In this document: piece after piece, positions 3,827 to 6,996 of the stretch
How positions within the stretch are numbered: position 1 is the first letter of the stretch
How the letters are laid out: each line of letters begins with the position of its first letter
Source of the DNA: Candidatus Woesearchaeota archaeon
Lineage (GTDB): Archaea > Nanobdellota > Nanobdellia > Woesearchaeales > ARS49
Length of the DNA stretch: 48,618 nucleotides
NCBI GenBank assembly: GCA_019323575.1
Contig: JAHWHB010000048.1
Span: 1-48,618 of the forward strand
Direction: 5' to 3'
Translations under genes and position numbers: made by a program
Notes under the pieces: model-generated
What the model saw: the letters and a program-made list of their open reading frames with translations, nothing else
What the model was told of the DNA's origin: nothing
The model's database searches: none

Positions 3827-3973
3827 CTATGGATTTTGCTTTAAAACGGCTGTTTTAATCTTGAAATTTCTGCCACAATAGACACAAAGCTTAGAACGGT
3901 CCGCAAGCAAGACATTCCTAGTCTCATACAACATCTGATTACCACAATGACGGCACTTCAACAAGAACTTCAT
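3827..3973 (-). CDS. Small zinc-ribbon protein (48 aa), below the cutoff of the ORF track
   Basis: My own translation is MKFLLKCRHCGNQMLYETRNVLLADRSKLCVYCGRNFKIKTAVLKQNP (CxxC-x19-CxxC). The ATG (3973-3971) overlaps the scpB TGA (3972-3970) as ATGA, which suggests translational coupling. Confidence 0.6.
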   Translation of the reverse strand: MKFLLKCRHCGNQMLYETRNVLLADRSKLCVYCGRNFKIKTAVLKQNP

Positions 3974-5163
3974 TCCTCTTTCTCACCAGACAACAATTTC
4001 TTAATCTTATCCTCAATCTTAGCCTCAACCTCAGGAGGAACCCCCTCAGGAAACAAACCCTTGCCAGCAAACTCCTTAGGCTTCATAGCCGCAGTCTTCT
4101 CAGCAGCCTCCTTAGCAATCTTCTGCTCATAAGACAACTCTTCAGGCTCTGCAGGCGTTTCTTTGACTTCTGTCTCTACGGGCTTTTCTTCTTCAGGAGC
4201 TTCAGGCTCTTTTTCTGCTTTCTTCTTACCCCTCTTTTTCTTCTTAGGCTTTTCTTCAGCTGGCTTCTCTTCTTCAACTTCAGGCTTTTCTTCAGGTTTT
4301 TCTTCAACTTCCAGCTCTTCAGGCTTTTCTTCTTCAGGAGCTTCAGATTCTGCAGGCTCTTCAGGTTTCTCTTCAGGCTTTTCTTTTTTCTCGTGCTTCT
4401 TCTTATGCTTCACATGCTTTTTGTGAACCTTCTTCTCACCTTCAACATCATAAACCTCAAGATTGCCAAAATTCTCCATAAAAAGCTCAACACCAGTAGG
4501 CAGCATCTCCTTAACAGGCTCAAGAGCAGGATAAGTCTCAAGAGGCTCCTTAGAACTGCCCAAGACAATCTGGGGCTTTTCCAAACGCTCCTCAGTCTGC
4601 CTTCTCTGCTCAACCTCAATACTCTCTATCTCAACCTCCTTAGCCTCAATAGCCTTCTCAATCTCAACAGCACTGCCAAACTTGTTCTTAAGCTTAGAAG
4701 GATCAATATCAAAATACTCAAAAAACTTAGGAGTAAGCTTAATCAACTTAGTCCTGCCAGACTTCTCACGCGTAATAAAACCAGACTCCTCCAAAAGAGA
4801 AAGATGCTCATACGCCTTATTAGTACGAATCTTGATAACCTTAGACTGCAAAACAGGAGCCTTATACGCAACAACAGCCAAAGTCTCAAGCTGACCCTTA
4901 GGAAGCTCAGTCTTAGTAACAACCTTCTTGATAACAGGAACATACTTCTCACGAACAGTCAACTTCCACGCAGAACCATCCTGAACAAGCATAGTAGGAC
5001 TATTAGCAGAATCAAGCAAAGCCTTCCACTCAGACAGAGCAGCAAGAACCTCCTCCTCAGAACGCTTACACAAACCAGCAAGCTCTGAGAGCTCAAGCTT
5101 TCTGCCTGCAGCAAACAAAATGGCCTCAACAGTACGCTTCAGTTCCTCATCCATTTGCGACAA
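3970..5163 (-). CDS. scpB: ScpB-like segregation/condensation protein with a long acidic-lysine low-complexity tail
   Basis: 397 aa. The N-terminal ~160 aa match the ScpB double winged-helix pattern (VEAILFAAGRKLELSELA..., QLETLAVVAYKAPVLQSKVIKIRTNKAYEHLSLLEESGFI). The C-terminal ~190 aa are KPEE/EEKP-rich. Confidence 0.8.
   Translation of the reverse strand: MSQMDEELKRTVEAILFAAGRKLELSELAGLCKRSEEEVLAALSEWKALLDSANSPTMLVQDGSAWKLTVREKYVPVIKKVVTKTELPKGQLETLAVVAYKAPVLQSKVIKIRTNKAYEHLSLLEESGFITREKSGRTKLIKLTPKFFEYFDIDPSKLKNKFGSAVEIEKAIEAKEVEIESIEVEQRRQTEERLEKPQIVLGSSKEPLETYPALEPVKEMLPTGVELFMENFGNLEVYDVEGEKKVHKKHVKHKKKHEKKEKPEEKPEEPAESEAPEEEKPEELEVEEKPEEKPEVEEEKPAEEKPKKKKRGKKKAEKEPEAPEEEKPVETEVKETPAEPEELSYEQKIAKEAAEKTAAMKPKEFAGKGLFPEGVPPEVEAKIEDKIKKLLSGEKEE
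4181..4346. repeat. Exact 25-nt direct repeat inside the scpB low-complexity tail
   Basis: ggcttttcttcttcaggagcttcag occurs at 4181-4205 and again at 4322-4346. Both copies encode APEEEKP on the minus strand. Confidence 0.8.
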
Positions 5164-5707
5164 AAAGATTGCCCTCTTTTTTAATTACACCTTTTGAAAT
5201 CAAAGTATCAACAAAACTCTGCAGCGCATCAGGCTTCATACCAATCATGTTGGAGAGATCATCCATTGATTTAGGCTTCTCACAAGCAAGCTTGATGAAA
5301 TTATGCAGAATATTAATCGCATTCTTATCCAAAACCTGCTTCTGAGCCTGCAAACCCTTCAACATCATATCAGTCTGGTGCAGGCGTCCCTGCAAATCAT
5401 TAAGAAAATCCTCAAACTTAGCCATATCAAGCTCCATTTTCTCAGGAGACATAATCTCGACAGTGCTGGGCATGCTGTCAAAACAGAAATTAAGAAGCTC
5501 ATGAGCATCCTTAAAAGAAATCTGAAGCTCAACAAACTGAGAAAACAGCTTGTCAGAAGGAACCGGCTCAGCATACTTCTCAATCTGAACATCAAGACCC
5601 TCCTGCTTGATCTTCTCAACGTGCTCCTCAAGCTTTTTAGCGATAAACTCCTTAGGACCGCCAAGTATCTCAATAATACACCTTGCCACTATGTTTTGTT
5701 GCTCCAT
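5147..5707 (-). CDS. Hypothetical protein with a coiled-coil middle and a winged-helix-like C-terminus; first gene of the scpB operon
   Basis: The ORF runs 5147-5719. I favour the start at M5 (MEQQNIV, ATG at 5707) because the TATA-like ctttataa (5731-5738) lies about 27 nt upstream. The 3' end overlaps the scpB start by 17 nt. I recognise no family. Confidence 0.6.
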   Translation of the reverse strand: MEQQNIVARCIIEILGGPKEFIAKKLEEHVEKIKQEGLDVQIEKYAEPVPSDKLFSQFVELQISFKDAHELLNFCFDSMPSTVEIMSPEKMELDMAKFEDFLNDLQGRLHQTDMMLKGLQAQKQVLDKNAINILHNFIKLACEKPKSMDDLSNMIGMKPDALQSFVDTLISKGVIKKEGNLFVANG

Positions 5708-5828
5708 ACCAGCGACCAAAAGCCAGCCAATTATAAAGCTTTTCCCTCAGAAAAAAGGCGATATTTGTTATTTGAGAATAGTTACAAAAGCTTTTAAGAG
5801 TGAATAAAAAAGGAAAAAACGGGGTGAT

Positions 5829-6287
5829 ATGATGGCAATATTCGGCTTTCTAAAGAAAAAACAGGAAGAACTACCAATGCCCCCGCCGCCACCAATGCCG
5901 GCAGCACCAGAAATACAAGGGGACATAGAAGAGATAAGACCAACAGAAATAGGACCAGAGCCAGAAATACCAGAACTCCCACCAGCACTTCCCGCTCCTG
6001 AAATTTACAAAAAACCAGCAGAACCTGCATGGGAAAAAGAGGAAGAAAAAATAGAAGTAAGACCTCCATTAAAACCGACATTCGTAGCAATAGAAGACTA
6101 CAAAAGAATCATCAACGACACAAACACAATAAGAGCAAAGCTCATGGAAGCAGAAAACTTCGTAAGAAAACTAGGAGATTTGAAAAACGAAGAAGAAAGA
6201 GCGTTTGAAAAATGGAGAACACAGCTAGAAGACGTAGAGAAAAAACTAGGCTACGTAGACCAGCTAATAGCAAAAGCAGAAAGGTGA
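5829..6287 (+). CDS. Paralogue 1 of a 3-gene family: amphipathic N-terminus, Pro-rich linker, conserved coiled-coil domain
   Basis: 152 aa. MMAIFGFLKKKQEE..., then PPPPPMPAAPE...PELPPALPAPE, then PTFVAIEDYKRIINDTNTIRAKL...WRTQLEDVEKKLGYVDQLI. The SD-like ggggtga lies 4 nt upstream. Confidence 0.7.
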   Translation: MMAIFGFLKKKQEELPMPPPPPMPAAPEIQGDIEEIRPTEIGPEPEIPELPPALPAPEIYKKPAEPAWEKEEEKIEVRPPLKPTFVAIEDYKRIINDTNTIRAKLMEAENFVRKLGDLKNEEERAFEKWRTQLEDVEKKLGYVDQLIAKAER

Positions 6288-6292
6288 TTAAT

Positions 6293-6520
6293 ATGGATGA
6301 TAGAGCACCAGTATTCGTAAAAATAGATGAGTACAAAGACATAGCAGACATAATGACACTAATGCGAGAAAAACTACAACAAGCAAAATTCCTGCTTGAC
6401 AAAATAGCAGAACTCAAAGCACAAGAAGACTCAGAACTAGCAACCTGGGTCAAAGAACTAGAAGACGTAGAAACAAGAGTGACAAACATAGACAGAGCAC
6501 TCTCACAACCAAGCCTATAA
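6293..6520 (+). CDS. Paralogue 2 (domain only)
   Basis: 75 aa from the internal ATG at 6293 (SD aggtga upstream). APVFVKIDEYKDIADIMTLMREKL...WVKELEDVETRVTNIDRAL aligns residue by residue with the C-terminal domain of 5829-6287. Confidence 0.7.
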   Translation: MDDRAPVFVKIDEYKDIADIMTLMREKLQQAKFLLDKIAELKAQEDSELATWVKELEDVETRVTNIDRALSQPSL

Positions 6521-6876
6521 TGGAAGAAGAACTATTCTTTGTCGGAATACGGGACCCAGTAGAAATAAGGAAAGAACTACTGACAAGCTCAAAAAACTTA
6601 ATCGACAGTTTGAAAAGATACGAACAATACAAAGACATCAAAGAAGAAAAACTGCAAAGAATAACAGAACTAAAAAGAATATTCGACGAGATAATGGTGC
6701 TTAACAAAAAACTAAGAAACCACATGCCAAAAACACCACTAAGAGCACCAAGCACAAAAACAGAAAAGACAACAAAAGCTTCTAAATCAAAACCAACAAA
6801 GTTCGGCAAAACAAAAATAGACGTTCTAGAACAAGAACTCGCCAAAATAGAAGAAAGACTAGGCGGGTTAGAATAA
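6520..6876 (+). CDS. Paralogue 3 (divergent) with a basic Ser/Thr/Lys-rich tail
   Basis: 118 aa. ELFFVGIRDPVEIRKELL...KEEKLQRITELKRIFDEI follows the same FV-I-...-coiled-coil pattern. The start overlaps the previous stop as TAATG. Confidence 0.65.
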   Translation: MEEELFFVGIRDPVEIRKELLTSSKNLIDSLKRYEQYKDIKEEKLQRITELKRIFDEIMVLNKKLRNHMPKTPLRAPSTKTEKTTKASKSKPTKFGKTKIDVLEQELAKIEERLGGLE

Positions 6877-6882
6877 AACTAA

Positions 6883-6996
6883 TGCGGGGGGCAGGATTCG
6901 AACCTGCGAAGGCACTAAGCCAATAGCTATCACCGCAATCAGCTGCGGCAAGTTTGCGCTTGAGGCTATCCCCTTTGGCCACTCGGGAACCCCCGC
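6883..6996 (-). tRNA. tRNA-Leu(CAA) with a ~30-nt intron at the canonical 37/38 position
   Basis: Acceptor stem GCGGGGG/CCCCCGC. T-arm GCAGG-TTCGAAT-CCTGC. Anticodon stem ATAGC/GCTAT with loop CU-CAA-G, then the intron, then A. The long variable arm (TGGCTTAGTGCCTTC) is typical of Leu. No CCA is encoded. Confidence 0.85.

What the first reader, a model, noticed from the sequence alone, without database searches (positions are those of the whole stretch)
5829..6876. Three tandem paralogous small coiled-coil proteins of unrecognised family; the first has a membrane-targeting-like N-terminus and a proline-rich linker
The C-terminal 70 aa of gene 1 are PTFVAIEDYKRIINDTNTIRAKL...WRTQLEDVEKKLGYVDQLI. 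These align position for position with the whole of gene 2 (PVFVKIDEYKDIADIMTLMREKL...WVKELEDVETRVTNIDRAL). They align more loosely with the N-terminal 60 aa of gene 3 (LFFVGIRDPVEIRKELL...).

The genes are separated by 5 nt and by a TAATG overlap, so they are almost certainly co-expressed.

Gene 1 starts MMAIFGFLKKKQ, an amphipathic-helix look similar to the membrane-targeting sequences of SepF or PspA-type proteins. A PPPPP/PEPE linker follows. Gene 3 ends in a basic S/T/K tail.

The architecture suggests a membrane-tethered hetero-oligomeric scaffold. The cluster is transcribed divergently from the ScpB operon. I cannot assign it to any described family.
Basis: partly seen in the sequence, partly recalled or inferred. 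Interest (0 to 1): 0.6.

Follow-up and report, generated by a model that had tools for sequence, protein, structure and literature searches.

The report
Conserved DPANN coiled-coil gene trio
Three tightly coupled small genes of a tiny Woesearchaeota-type (DPANN) archaeon encode long single-helix proteins of an undescribed family; relatives occur in almost every genome of the phylum and the two Nanoarchaeum equitans counterparts were detected as proteins, but what the module does is still unknown.

Summary
The three genes are real: g1 5829-6287, g2 6293-6520, g3 6520-6876. They are coupled by a 5-nt gap and a TAATG overlap. The last 70 residues of g1 and all of g2 are true paralogues (33% identity without gaps; hhalign 98.8%). 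Gene 3 is not demonstrably related.

AlphaFold gives single long helices. Pfam, NCBIfam, PDB sequences and Foldseek give nothing.

The order g1-g2-g3 holds in 87 of 89 related loci. The shared domain occurs in 282 of 301 genomes sampled from the phylum.

New here:
- Fifteen genomes from other orders, Nanoarchaeum equitans included, carry a two-gene form: a long anchor-linker-helix protein followed, in 14 of them, by a g3-like gene. So g2 is an order-specific extra copy.
- The N. equitans counterparts, NEQ121 and NEQ123, were detected by mass spectrometry (PMC3149612).

The N-terminal hydrophobic-plus-polylysine motif followed by polyproline is present in 115 of 132 long forms. It is a block-type motif, not a textbook amphipathic helix.

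Best reading, inferred and not shown: a coiled-coil assembly hung on the inner membrane face, possibly in division or chromosome handling.

The scan has reported this operon before in at least six other genomes.

The parts
5792..5799 (+). TATA-like A/T box (TTTTAAGA) about 30 nt upstream of the g1 start, in the 109-nt divergent spacer shared with the ScpB-side operon
   Evidence: Read directly. Inference only; no promoter test was made.
5829..6287 (+). g1: 152-aa protein made of an N-terminal motif, a Pro/Glu-rich linker and a C-terminal coiled-coil domain (stop codon included)
   Evidence: ORF. 79 homologues, all unnamed or 'hypothetical'. Alignment A1.
5829..5864 (+). g1 residues 1-12, MMAIFGFLKKKQ: a short hydrophobic block followed by a polylysine block; candidate membrane-binding motif or short linear motif
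   Evidence: A pattern of this type is found in 115 of 132 long-form family members and in most of the 15 other-order genomes. The hydrophobic moment is not above shuffles.
5871..5900 (+). g1 residues 15-24, LPMPPPPPMP: conserved polyproline stretch directly after the basic block
   Evidence: A PPP-type motif lies within the first 45 residues in 126 of 132 long forms. Alignment A1.
5865..6065 (+). g1 residues 13-79: Pro/acidic-rich linker, probably disordered (not modelled here), carrying the conserved short motifs GDIExIR and LPELPPALPAP
   Evidence: Alignment A1. Across the family the linker is 42-204 residues long, with median Pro fraction 0.23 and median acidic fraction 0.21.
6066..6284 (+). 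g1 residues 80-152: the shared ~70-residue domain ('DOM'), beginning PxFVxIxDY
   Evidence: BLASTP against g2, E 1e-12. hhalign 98.8%.
6283..6287 (+). GGTGA, a Shine-Dalgarno-like site for g2 that overlaps the end of g1, 5 nt before the g2 ATG
   Evidence: Sequence. The median g1-g2 gap is 6 nt in 87 loci.
6293..6520 (+). g2: 75-aa free-standing copy of DOM; one continuous heptad register with polar core residues K42 and E45 and core residue W52
   Evidence: 119 homologues. Alignment A2. The AlphaFold2 model is one helix at 7-71, pLDDT 88. Heptad analysis.
6518..6522 (+). TAATG stop/start overlap between g2 and g3
   Evidence: Sequence. The median g2-g3 gap is 0 nt, and overlaps of -4 and -1 are common.
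6520..6876 (+). g3: 118-aa protein with an N-terminal LFFVGI motif, a long helix (13-67), a Lys/Ser/Thr/Pro-rich linker (68-98; 9 basic and 1 acidic residue in 67-97) and a conserved C-terminal helix (99-117)
   Evidence: 98 homologues. Alignment A3. AlphaFold2 model. Linker charge.

Best explanation
This is a phylum-wide, vertically inherited module of cytoplasmic coiled-coil proteins of an undescribed family. At least its two N. equitans counterparts are made as proteins.

Shown:
- g1 consists of an N-terminal hydrophobic-plus-polylysine motif, a polyproline stretch, a variable Pro/acidic linker and a roughly nine-heptad helix (DOM).
- g2 is a free-standing paralogous DOM helix.
- g3 is a long-helix protein not related by sequence, with a lysine-rich linker and a short terminal helix.
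- The three genes are translationally coupled, and their order is kept across the window's order.
- Fifteen genomes from other orders of the phylum, N. equitans included, carry a single long g1-like gene; a g3-like gene lies directly downstream in 14 of them.

Inferred:
- The DOM helices of g1 and g2, probably together with g3, assemble into a hetero-oligomeric coiled coil.
- The g1 N-terminus hangs this assembly on the inner face of the membrane, through a flexible arm of about 40 to 200 residues.
- The conserved short motifs in the arm, and the basic linker of g3, recruit other partners: proteins, or DNA or anionic lipid.

My preferred role is a tether or scaffold in cell division or chromosome handling. 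It would work like the SepF, CdpC or ZipA type of 'membrane motif - disordered linker - binding domain' proteins without being related to them.
For: Real, conserved genes:
- 79, 119 and 98 homologues for g1, g2 and g3.
- The DOM profile finds 3129 clusters at E<=1e-3 among 1.84 billion representatives. The best 150 listed have only two architectures: about 75 aa, or a longer protein with DOM at its C-terminus.
- DOM is found in 282 of 301 genomes and 212 of 224 genera of the phylum.
- The order g1-g2-g3 on one strand holds in 87 of 89 loci, with median gaps of 6 and 0 nt.

Ancestral pair:
- 15 genomes from 15 other families each have one long form; most of them start with the same type of N-terminal motif.
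- A g3-like gene lies directly downstream in 14 of the 15.

Protein-level evidence:
- The N. equitans homologues NEQ121 and NEQ123 gave adjusted spectral counts of 79/80 and 51/80, co-culture / purified cells.
- Their rebalanced counts are 507/209 and 237/152, in the range of the neighbouring housekeeping proteins.
- Neither has an arCOG, a signal peptide or a transmembrane segment in that table (PMC3149612, Table S1).

Coiled coil:
- AlphaFold2 gives one helix at 7-71 for g2 (pLDDT 88) and helices at 13-67 and 99-117 for g3.
- g2 keeps a single heptad phase throughout. The invariant K42 (a position), E45 (d) and W52 (d) lie in the core, which suggests a specific packing partner.

Membrane motif:
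- The hydrophobic-plus-polybasic N-terminus is present in 115 of 132 long forms, and most exceptions look like truncated gene calls.
- The SepF of the same genome starts MDFFSKLKEKI. The N-terminal 12 residues of archaeal SepF are the proposed membrane-binding domain (PMC8178401).
- The design 'amphipathic helix - long disordered linker - binding domain' has just been shown for the FtsZ1 anchor CdpC of haloarchaea (bioRxiv 10.64898/2026.07.16.738847).

Context:
- The genome is 839 kb and 97% complete, with three FtsZ/tubulin genes and one SepF.
- ScpB, gyrA, PCNA and RNase J are neighbours within the order.
Against: - No experiment or prediction here shows membrane binding. The helical hydrophobic moment of the window's residues 2-12 is 0.16, and 82% of shuffles reach it. 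The same genome's SepF N-terminus gives 0.54. The motif is therefore a hydrophobic block plus a basic block, not a classical amphipathic helix, and it could equally be a protein-binding short motif.
- No contact between the three proteins has been shown.
- The neighbourhood outside the trio is not conserved across orders. In three other-order genomes it is a TFE-alpha-like gene and AlaRS. In N. equitans it is a MinD/ParA-like gene and a metallo-beta-lactamase-fold gene. The ScpB link therefore carries little weight.
- A canonical SepF already exists in the genome, so a second FtsZ anchor is not required.
Confidence: 0.42

Rival explanations
1. A soluble coiled-coil adaptor. The N-terminal MGLFxFLKKK-PPPP segment is a short linear motif that docks onto a protein partner, not onto the membrane. 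The helices form a cytosolic homo- or hetero-oligomer that bridges partners bound to the linker motifs.
For: - The hydrophobic moment of the N-terminus is not above shuffles.
- The motif is always followed by a conserved polyproline stretch, in 126 of 132 long forms. Several further conserved short motifs (GDIExIR, LPELPPALPAP, VFDRTI) sit in the linker. This is typical of disordered interaction hubs.
- NEQ121 and NEQ123 carry no membrane flag in the proteome table.
Against: - A short hydrophobic block followed by three to five lysines at the very N-terminus is a common peripheral membrane-binding design. The E. coli MinE targeting sequence, recalled from memory, has the same block layout and an equally low moment.
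- No polyproline-reading domain was looked for in these genomes.
Confidence: 0.2
2. A lineage-specific FtsZ tether. g1 would be the Nanobdellota counterpart of the second archaeal Z-ring anchor (as CdpC is for FtsZ1 in haloarchaea), with DOM or the g1-g2-g3 bundle binding one of the three FtsZ paralogues.
For: - The three-part layout matches SepF and CdpC.
- The genome has three FtsZ/tubulin genes but only one SepF-type protein.
- The module is nearly universal in a phylum that, on published accounts, divides by FtsZ.
Against: - There is no sequence or fold relation to SepF or CdpC. g1 has no Cys or His, so it cannot have CdpC-type zinc fingers.
- No ftsZ gene lies beside the module in any locus examined.
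- No binding test was possible.
Confidence: 0.12
3. A nucleoid-membrane tether or condensin accessory. The lysine-rich linker of g3 binds DNA, and the g1 arm fixes the complex at the membrane. It would act together with the divergently transcribed ScpB / MJ0538-like operon.
For: - The g3 linker has 9 basic and 1 acidic residue in 31, and is K/S/T/P-rich like histone-tail DNA binders.
- The ScpB and MJ0538-like genes are divergent neighbours in most Woesearchaeales loci.
- gyrA, PCNA and RFC lie nearby.
Against: - The ScpB synteny stops at the order boundary and is already missing in some trio loci.
- A basic low-complexity stretch would equally bind RNA or anionic lipid.
- There is no recognisable DNA-binding fold.
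Confidence: 0.12
4. A diverged member of a known helical machine: ESCRT-III/PspA-type membrane remodellers, or the E/H peripheral stalk of the A-type ATP synthase.
For: - The N-terminus resembles the MGLFGK-type starts of some eukaryotic ESCRT-III proteins (from memory).
- The proteins are long single helices, like stalk subunits.
Against: - The own genome has no Snf7 match, no MIT domain and no ATP-synt_ab A/B subunit. It is 97% complete and still keeps the trio.
- No Pfam match to either family appears even at E<=1 in 59 family members.
Confidence: 0.03

Closest known systems
SepF (PF04472), the FtsZ membrane anchor of archaea and bacteria
   Same: Layout: an N-terminal membrane-binding segment of about 12 residues, a flexible linker, and a C-terminal binding or oligomerising domain (PMC8178401). 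The SepF of the same genome starts with a similar F/L/K-rich segment.
   Different: The SepF core is a compact alpha/beta domain. g1 ends in a single 65-residue coiled-coil helix and gives no PF04472 hit. The genome has its own SepF elsewhere. There is no evidence of FtsZ binding.
CdpC (HVO_0399), the FtsZ1 membrane anchor of haloarchaea (bioRxiv 10.64898/2026.07.16.738847)
   Same: [quoted passage not shown] Fast-evolving sequence with a conserved architecture.
   Different: CdpC needs a zinc finger in both terminal domains. g1 has no Cys or His. CdpC is a single gene, not a trio of helices. No homology was detected.
MinE membrane-targeting sequence (E. coli MinE residues 2-12, recalled from memory)
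   Same: The same block design at the extreme N-terminus: a few Leu/Phe residues, then Arg/Lys. The helical hydrophobic moment is equally low.
   Different: The resemblance covers about 10 residues only. There is no MinE fold, and MinE is not known in archaea. This is a lead, not a test.
ZapB-type small coiled-coil divisome accessory proteins (bacteria; from memory)
   Same: A protein of about 75-80 residues that is essentially one coiled-coil helix, like g2.
   Different: There is no sequence relation. ZapB is not part of a three-gene operon, and its partners (ZapA, MatP) were not looked for here. The analogy rests on shape only.

Membership tests
SepF (PF04472) | SepF/DUF552 alpha-beta core domain | tested here: not met
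   No PF04472 hit for g1, g2 or g3 at E<=10, or for 32 DOM family members at E<=1. The AlphaFold2 model is a single helix. The same search finds the genome's true SepF on another contig.
SepF (PF04472) | N-terminal membrane-targeting segment followed by a flexible linker | tested here: inconclusive
   A conserved hydrophobic-plus-polybasic N-terminus and a Pro-rich linker are present. The hydrophobic moment is not above shuffles, and there was no binding test.
SepF (PF04472) | Binds the FtsZ C-terminal peptide | not testable with these tools
CdpC (haloarchaeal FtsZ1 anchor) | Zinc fingers in the N- and C-terminal domains, indispensable for function | tested here: not met
   g1 contains no Cys and no His. 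None is conserved in alignment A1.
ESCRT-III / Snf7 (PF03357) with Vps4 | Snf7-type helical hairpin core, and a MIT-domain AAA ATPase partner in the genome | tested here: not met
   No PF03357 match in the proteins or in the whole genome at E<=1. No MIT domain in the genome.
A-type ATP synthase peripheral stalk (subunits E and H) | Co-occurrence with the catalytic A/B subunits | tested here: not met
   No PF00006 match in the 97%-complete genome, while all 14 control genomes match.
The undescribed 'DOM' family itself (g1 C-domain and g2; NEQ121 of N. equitans) | A helix of about 70 residues starting PxFVxIxxY, with invariant E45 and W52 and conserved K42 (g2 numbering) | tested here: met
   Alignments A2 and A4. 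hhalign of g1 against g2 gives 98.8%. NEQ121 matches the profile at E 1.4e-9 on a whole-genome search.
The g3 family (NEQ123 of N. equitans) | An N-terminal hydrophobic V/I motif with a conserved Arg, a long helix, a basic linker, and a C-terminal LExELxxIExxL helix, encoded directly downstream of a DOM gene | tested here: met
   Alignment A3. g3-like genes lie downstream of the long form in 14 of 15 other-order genomes; two of these matches are weaker than the rest. NEQ123 scores E 9e-6 with an iterated profile at genome scale, with high compositional bias. A third, marginal match scores E 0.006.

The most novel reading that the evidence does not exclude
The g1-g3 pair (with g2 in Woesearchaeales) is a Nanobdellota-specific cytoskeletal or divisome element. 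It would be the membrane tether that positions one of the FtsZ paralogues, or the nucleoid, in these ultra-small symbionts, and would have evolved independently of SepF, CdpC and the bacterial anchors.
Probability: 0.15. Interest if true: 0.75.

Novelty: new variant of a known kind. Interest (0 to 1): 0.5.

Why it matters
Nanobdellota genomes are stripped to 0.5-1.5 Mb, yet almost all of those sampled keep this module, and N. equitans makes both proteins at levels similar to housekeeping enzymes. That marks it as core cell biology of DPANN archaea that no database names.

If it is a membrane tether for the division ring or the chromosome, it would add an independently evolved solution to a problem currently known from SepF, CdpC, FtsA and ZipA. 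It would also give a handle on how sub-micron symbiotic cells organise their interior.

The link to NEQ121 and NEQ123 makes the question testable in a cultured system.

Tried and rejected
- Complex prediction of g1 (78-152) + g2 + g3, with g3 as the scored partner: score 0.18 against a mark of 0.32. No verdict, so no evidence either way.
- Foldseek of the g2 model against PDB: no match. This is expected for a single helix.
- Profile searches of PDB sequences with DOM and g3: only coiled-coil noise, with E>=0.01.
- Pfam on all 59 aligned members at E<=1: only sub-threshold coiled-coil families. Med9 hit 18 of 32 members, best E 3.5e-4 and well under the cut-off. NCBIfam: nothing.
- ESM Atlas look-alikes: only unnamed Nanobdellota clusters.
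- g3 as a third paralogue: rejected as unproven.
- ESCRT-III/Vps4 reading: rejected, no Snf7 and no MIT.
- ATP-synthase stalk reading: rejected, no A/B subunits.
- The upstream wH/coiled-coil neighbours of different orders as one conserved partner: BLASTP finds no relation between the window's 190-aa protein, the TFE-like proteins and NEQ120.
- Simple 'g2 is a recent copy of Woesearchaeal g1'. The ML tree (73 columns) groups g1 with 12 other-order long forms, against g2 (99/98). The timing of the duplication therefore stays open. Three long-branch sequences fall among g2 and are unreliable.
- Literature search for NEQ121 and NEQ123 in main texts: nothing.
- Presence outside the phylum could not be tested, because no genome handle for another phylum was available.
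Full report
**The observation**

The window holds three co-directional ORFs: g1 at 5829-6287 (152 aa), g2 at 6293-6520 (75 aa) and g3 at 6520-6876 (118 aa).
- The g1 stop (TGA, 6285-6287) is 5 nt from the g2 ATG. GGTGA at 6283-6287 is in Shine-Dalgarno position.
- The g2 stop and the g3 start overlap as TAATG.
- g1 residues 83-149 align without a gap to g2 residues 6-72: 33% identity, E 1e-12.
- Profiles of the two families match at 98.8% probability, E 5e-17.

The third paralogy is not supported.
- BLASTP gives E 0.1 and 3.1. hhalign gives 3% and 0.2%.
That is no better than other heptad-compatible offsets, against +104 for the g1-g2 control.
- The basic stretch of g3 is internal. A conserved C-terminal helix follows it.

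**What the proteins look like**

- AlphaFold2 with family alignments gives g2 as one helix, residues 7-71, pLDDT 88.
- It gives g3 as helices at 13-67 and 99-117, joined by a low-confidence segment (lowest pLDDT at 80-95).
- g2 keeps one heptad phase from end to end. The invariant E45 and W52 and the nearly invariant K42 sit in core positions. A conserved PVFVKI cap starts the helix.
- g1 adds three things in front of this domain: an N-terminal segment (consensus MGLFxFLKKK), a polyproline run (ELPLPPPP), and a linker rich in Pro and acidic residues. The linker carries the conserved short motifs GDIExIR, LPELPPALPAP and VFDRTI.
- Across 132 long-form relatives, 115 have the N-terminal pattern and most of the rest look like truncated gene calls. 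126 have the polyproline motif. The linker varies from 42 to 204 residues.
- The N-terminal segment is a hydrophobic block followed by a basic block, not a clean amphipathic helix. Its helical moment is 0.16 in the window's protein, and 82% of shuffles reach that value. The SepF N-terminus of the same genome gives 0.54.
- The MinE targeting sequence, recalled from memory, has the same block design and an equally low moment. The moment therefore does not decide the question.

**No known family**

- Pfam, NCBIfam and PDB sequence searches, with single proteins and with profiles, give only sub-threshold coiled-coil noise. Foldseek finds no match.
- The ESM Atlas shows only unnamed Nanobdellota clusters.

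**Distribution**

- The three proteins have 79, 119 and 98 homologues. All are unnamed or 'hypothetical', apart from a few evidently automatic names (e.g. phasin, Gam). Where the organism is named it is Woesearchaeota or Nanoarchaeia.
- A profile of the shared domain (DOM) finds 3129 clusters at E<=1e-3 and 961 at E<=1e-10 among 1.84 billion representatives. Among the best 150 listed there are only two forms: about 75 aa, or 100-290 aa with DOM at the C-terminus.
- In 301 genomes sampled over the phylum, all at least 90% complete, 282 have DOM (212 of 224 genera).
- In 89 loci of the window's order, 87 have g1, g2 and g3 in this order on one strand, with median gaps of 6 and 0 nt. One exception is cut by a contig end. 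The other lacks a detectable g1 domain.
- Families of the order that showed only one DOM match still have g1, but with a strongly diverged C-domain (E 1e-7 to 1e-4).

**An older two-gene core**

- Fifteen genomes from fifteen other families of the class each carry a single long-form DOM protein; most of them start with the same type of N-terminus. A g3-like gene follows directly in 14 of them.
- One of these genomes is a single contig of 490,885 bp. Its proteins are NEQ121 and NEQ123 of Nanoarchaeum equitans.
- NEQ121 matches the DOM profile at E 1.4e-9.
- NEQ123 matches an iterated g3 profile at E 9e-6 at genome scale, with high compositional bias.
- The ancestral module is therefore g1 plus g3. 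g2 is an extra free-standing DOM found in the window's order.
- A maximum-likelihood tree of DOM (73 columns) puts the g1 domains in one clan (95/83). It groups them with 12 other-order long forms, against g2 (99/98). g1 is thus the orthologue of the single long form. Whether g2 arose at the base of the order and then diverged asymmetrically, or is older, is not resolved. Three long-branch sequences fall among g2 and are unreliable.

**Expression**

- In the whole-cell proteome of the N. equitans-Ignicoccus hospitalis system (PMC3149612, Table S1), NEQ121 has adjusted spectral counts of 79 (co-culture) and 80 (purified N. equitans), with rebalanced counts of 507 and 209.
- NEQ123 has 51 and 80, with rebalanced counts of 237 and 152.
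- In purified cells, neighbours score 111 (fibrillarin), 144 (archaeosine tRNA-ribosyltransferase) and 845 (MinD-like NEQ119).
- Neither protein has an arCOG, a signal peptide or a transmembrane flag in that table.
- Both N. equitans proteins are therefore made in a cultured relative.

**Context**

- Within the order the trio faces a divergent ScpB / MJ0538-like operon and is followed by RNase J and PCNA.
- Some trio loci have pyrimidine-synthesis genes upstream instead.
- Three genomes of other orders have a TFE-alpha-like gene upstream and alanyl-tRNA synthetase downstream.
- N. equitans has an unknown secreted protein and a MinD/ParA-like ATPase upstream, and a metallo-beta-lactamase-fold gene downstream.
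- No neighbour is universal, so synteny gives no firm functional link.
- The window's genome (839 kb, 97% complete) has three FtsZ/tubulin genes and one SepF. It has no Snf7, no MIT domain and no ATP synthase A/B subunits. That removes the ESCRT-III and ATPase-stalk readings.

**Interpretation**

The best-supported reading is a hetero-oligomeric coiled-coil assembly. It would be built from the g1 and g2 DOM helices, probably with g3, and held at the inner face of the membrane by the g1 N-terminus on a flexible proline-rich arm. The linker motifs and the lysine-rich g3 linker would serve as docking sites.
- This works like the 'membrane motif - disordered linker - binding domain' tethers SepF (PMC8178401) and CdpC (bioRxiv 10.64898/2026.07.16.738847).
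- Membership in either family was tested and not met: no SepF core, no zinc fingers.
- Membrane binding, mutual binding and the cellular role are all inferred. The one complex prediction gave no verdict.
- I put about 0.4 on the tethered-scaffold mechanism. Within it I put roughly equal small weights on an FtsZ-related and a nucleoid-related role.

**Relation to earlier notes of this scan**

The same operon was reported in at least six other genomes: e1-3309978, e1-908580, e1-1383827, e1-948354, e1-700866 and e1-1417748, plus the first-reader note e1-2859342. All reached the same general reading. None of the notes returned mentions the following, which I therefore count as new here:
- the two-gene ancestral form across the phylum;
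- the identification of NEQ121 and NEQ123;
- the mass-spectrometry evidence;
- the heptad and core-residue analysis;
- the rejection of the ATPase-stalk and ESCRT readings;
- the finding that the N-terminus is not a textbook amphipathic helix.

Noticed in passing
window 6883-6996 (-): An intron-containing tRNA with a long variable arm converges on the end of g3. Rfam tRNA scores 42.1 bits, E 7e-8, with a 33-nt insertion in the anticodon region. ARAGORN and the gathering-threshold Rfam scan both missed it.
   Followed up: partly
window 5147-5719 (-) and 3970-5163 (-): The 190-aa protein upstream of ScpB gives no Pfam hit at E<=0.01, only weak winged-helix hits at its C-terminus. Its orthologues in L001 and L002 are recorded as PF27325 (MJ0538). 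ScpB itself (PF04079 over residues 11-154) carries a tail of roughly 190 residues rich in Lys/Pro/Glu.
   Followed up: partly
whole genome G000: The 839-kb, 97%-complete genome has three FtsZ/tubulin-type genes (contigs C69, C61, C55), one SepF (C16) and three CbiA/MinD-type ATPases. It has no match to Snf7, MIT or the ATP synthase A/B family.
   Followed up: no
L093 5738-6496 (-), L094 7329-8057 (+), L095 7716-8303 (+): In three genomes of other orders the divergent upstream neighbour of the g1-g3 pair is a 196-252-aa protein with a TFIIE-alpha winged-helix domain (one of them also shows a weak coiled-coil match), and alanyl-tRNA synthetase lies downstream. This is a recurrent but order-limited context.
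   Followed up: no
L096 (N. equitans) 5069-5800 (-) and 5844-6608 (-): Upstream of NEQ121 lie NEQ120 and NEQ119. NEQ120 is an unknown protein flagged with a signal peptide and a transmembrane segment in PMC3149612. NEQ119 is a MinD/ParA-type ATPase that is abundant in the proteome, with a rebalanced count of 845 in purified cells.
   Followed up: no
window 5865-6065 (g1 linker): Short motifs conserved inside an otherwise variable Pro-rich linker: GDIExIR about 10-25 residues after the polyproline run, then LPELPPALPAP, and in most relatives VFDRTI. They look like docking motifs for unknown partners.
   Followed up: partly
L118 13305-13568 (+): A PRC-barrel gene (PF05239) lies about 5 kb downstream of the trio, next to RFC. 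PRC-barrel proteins are archaeal division factors in haloarchaea.
   Followed up: no
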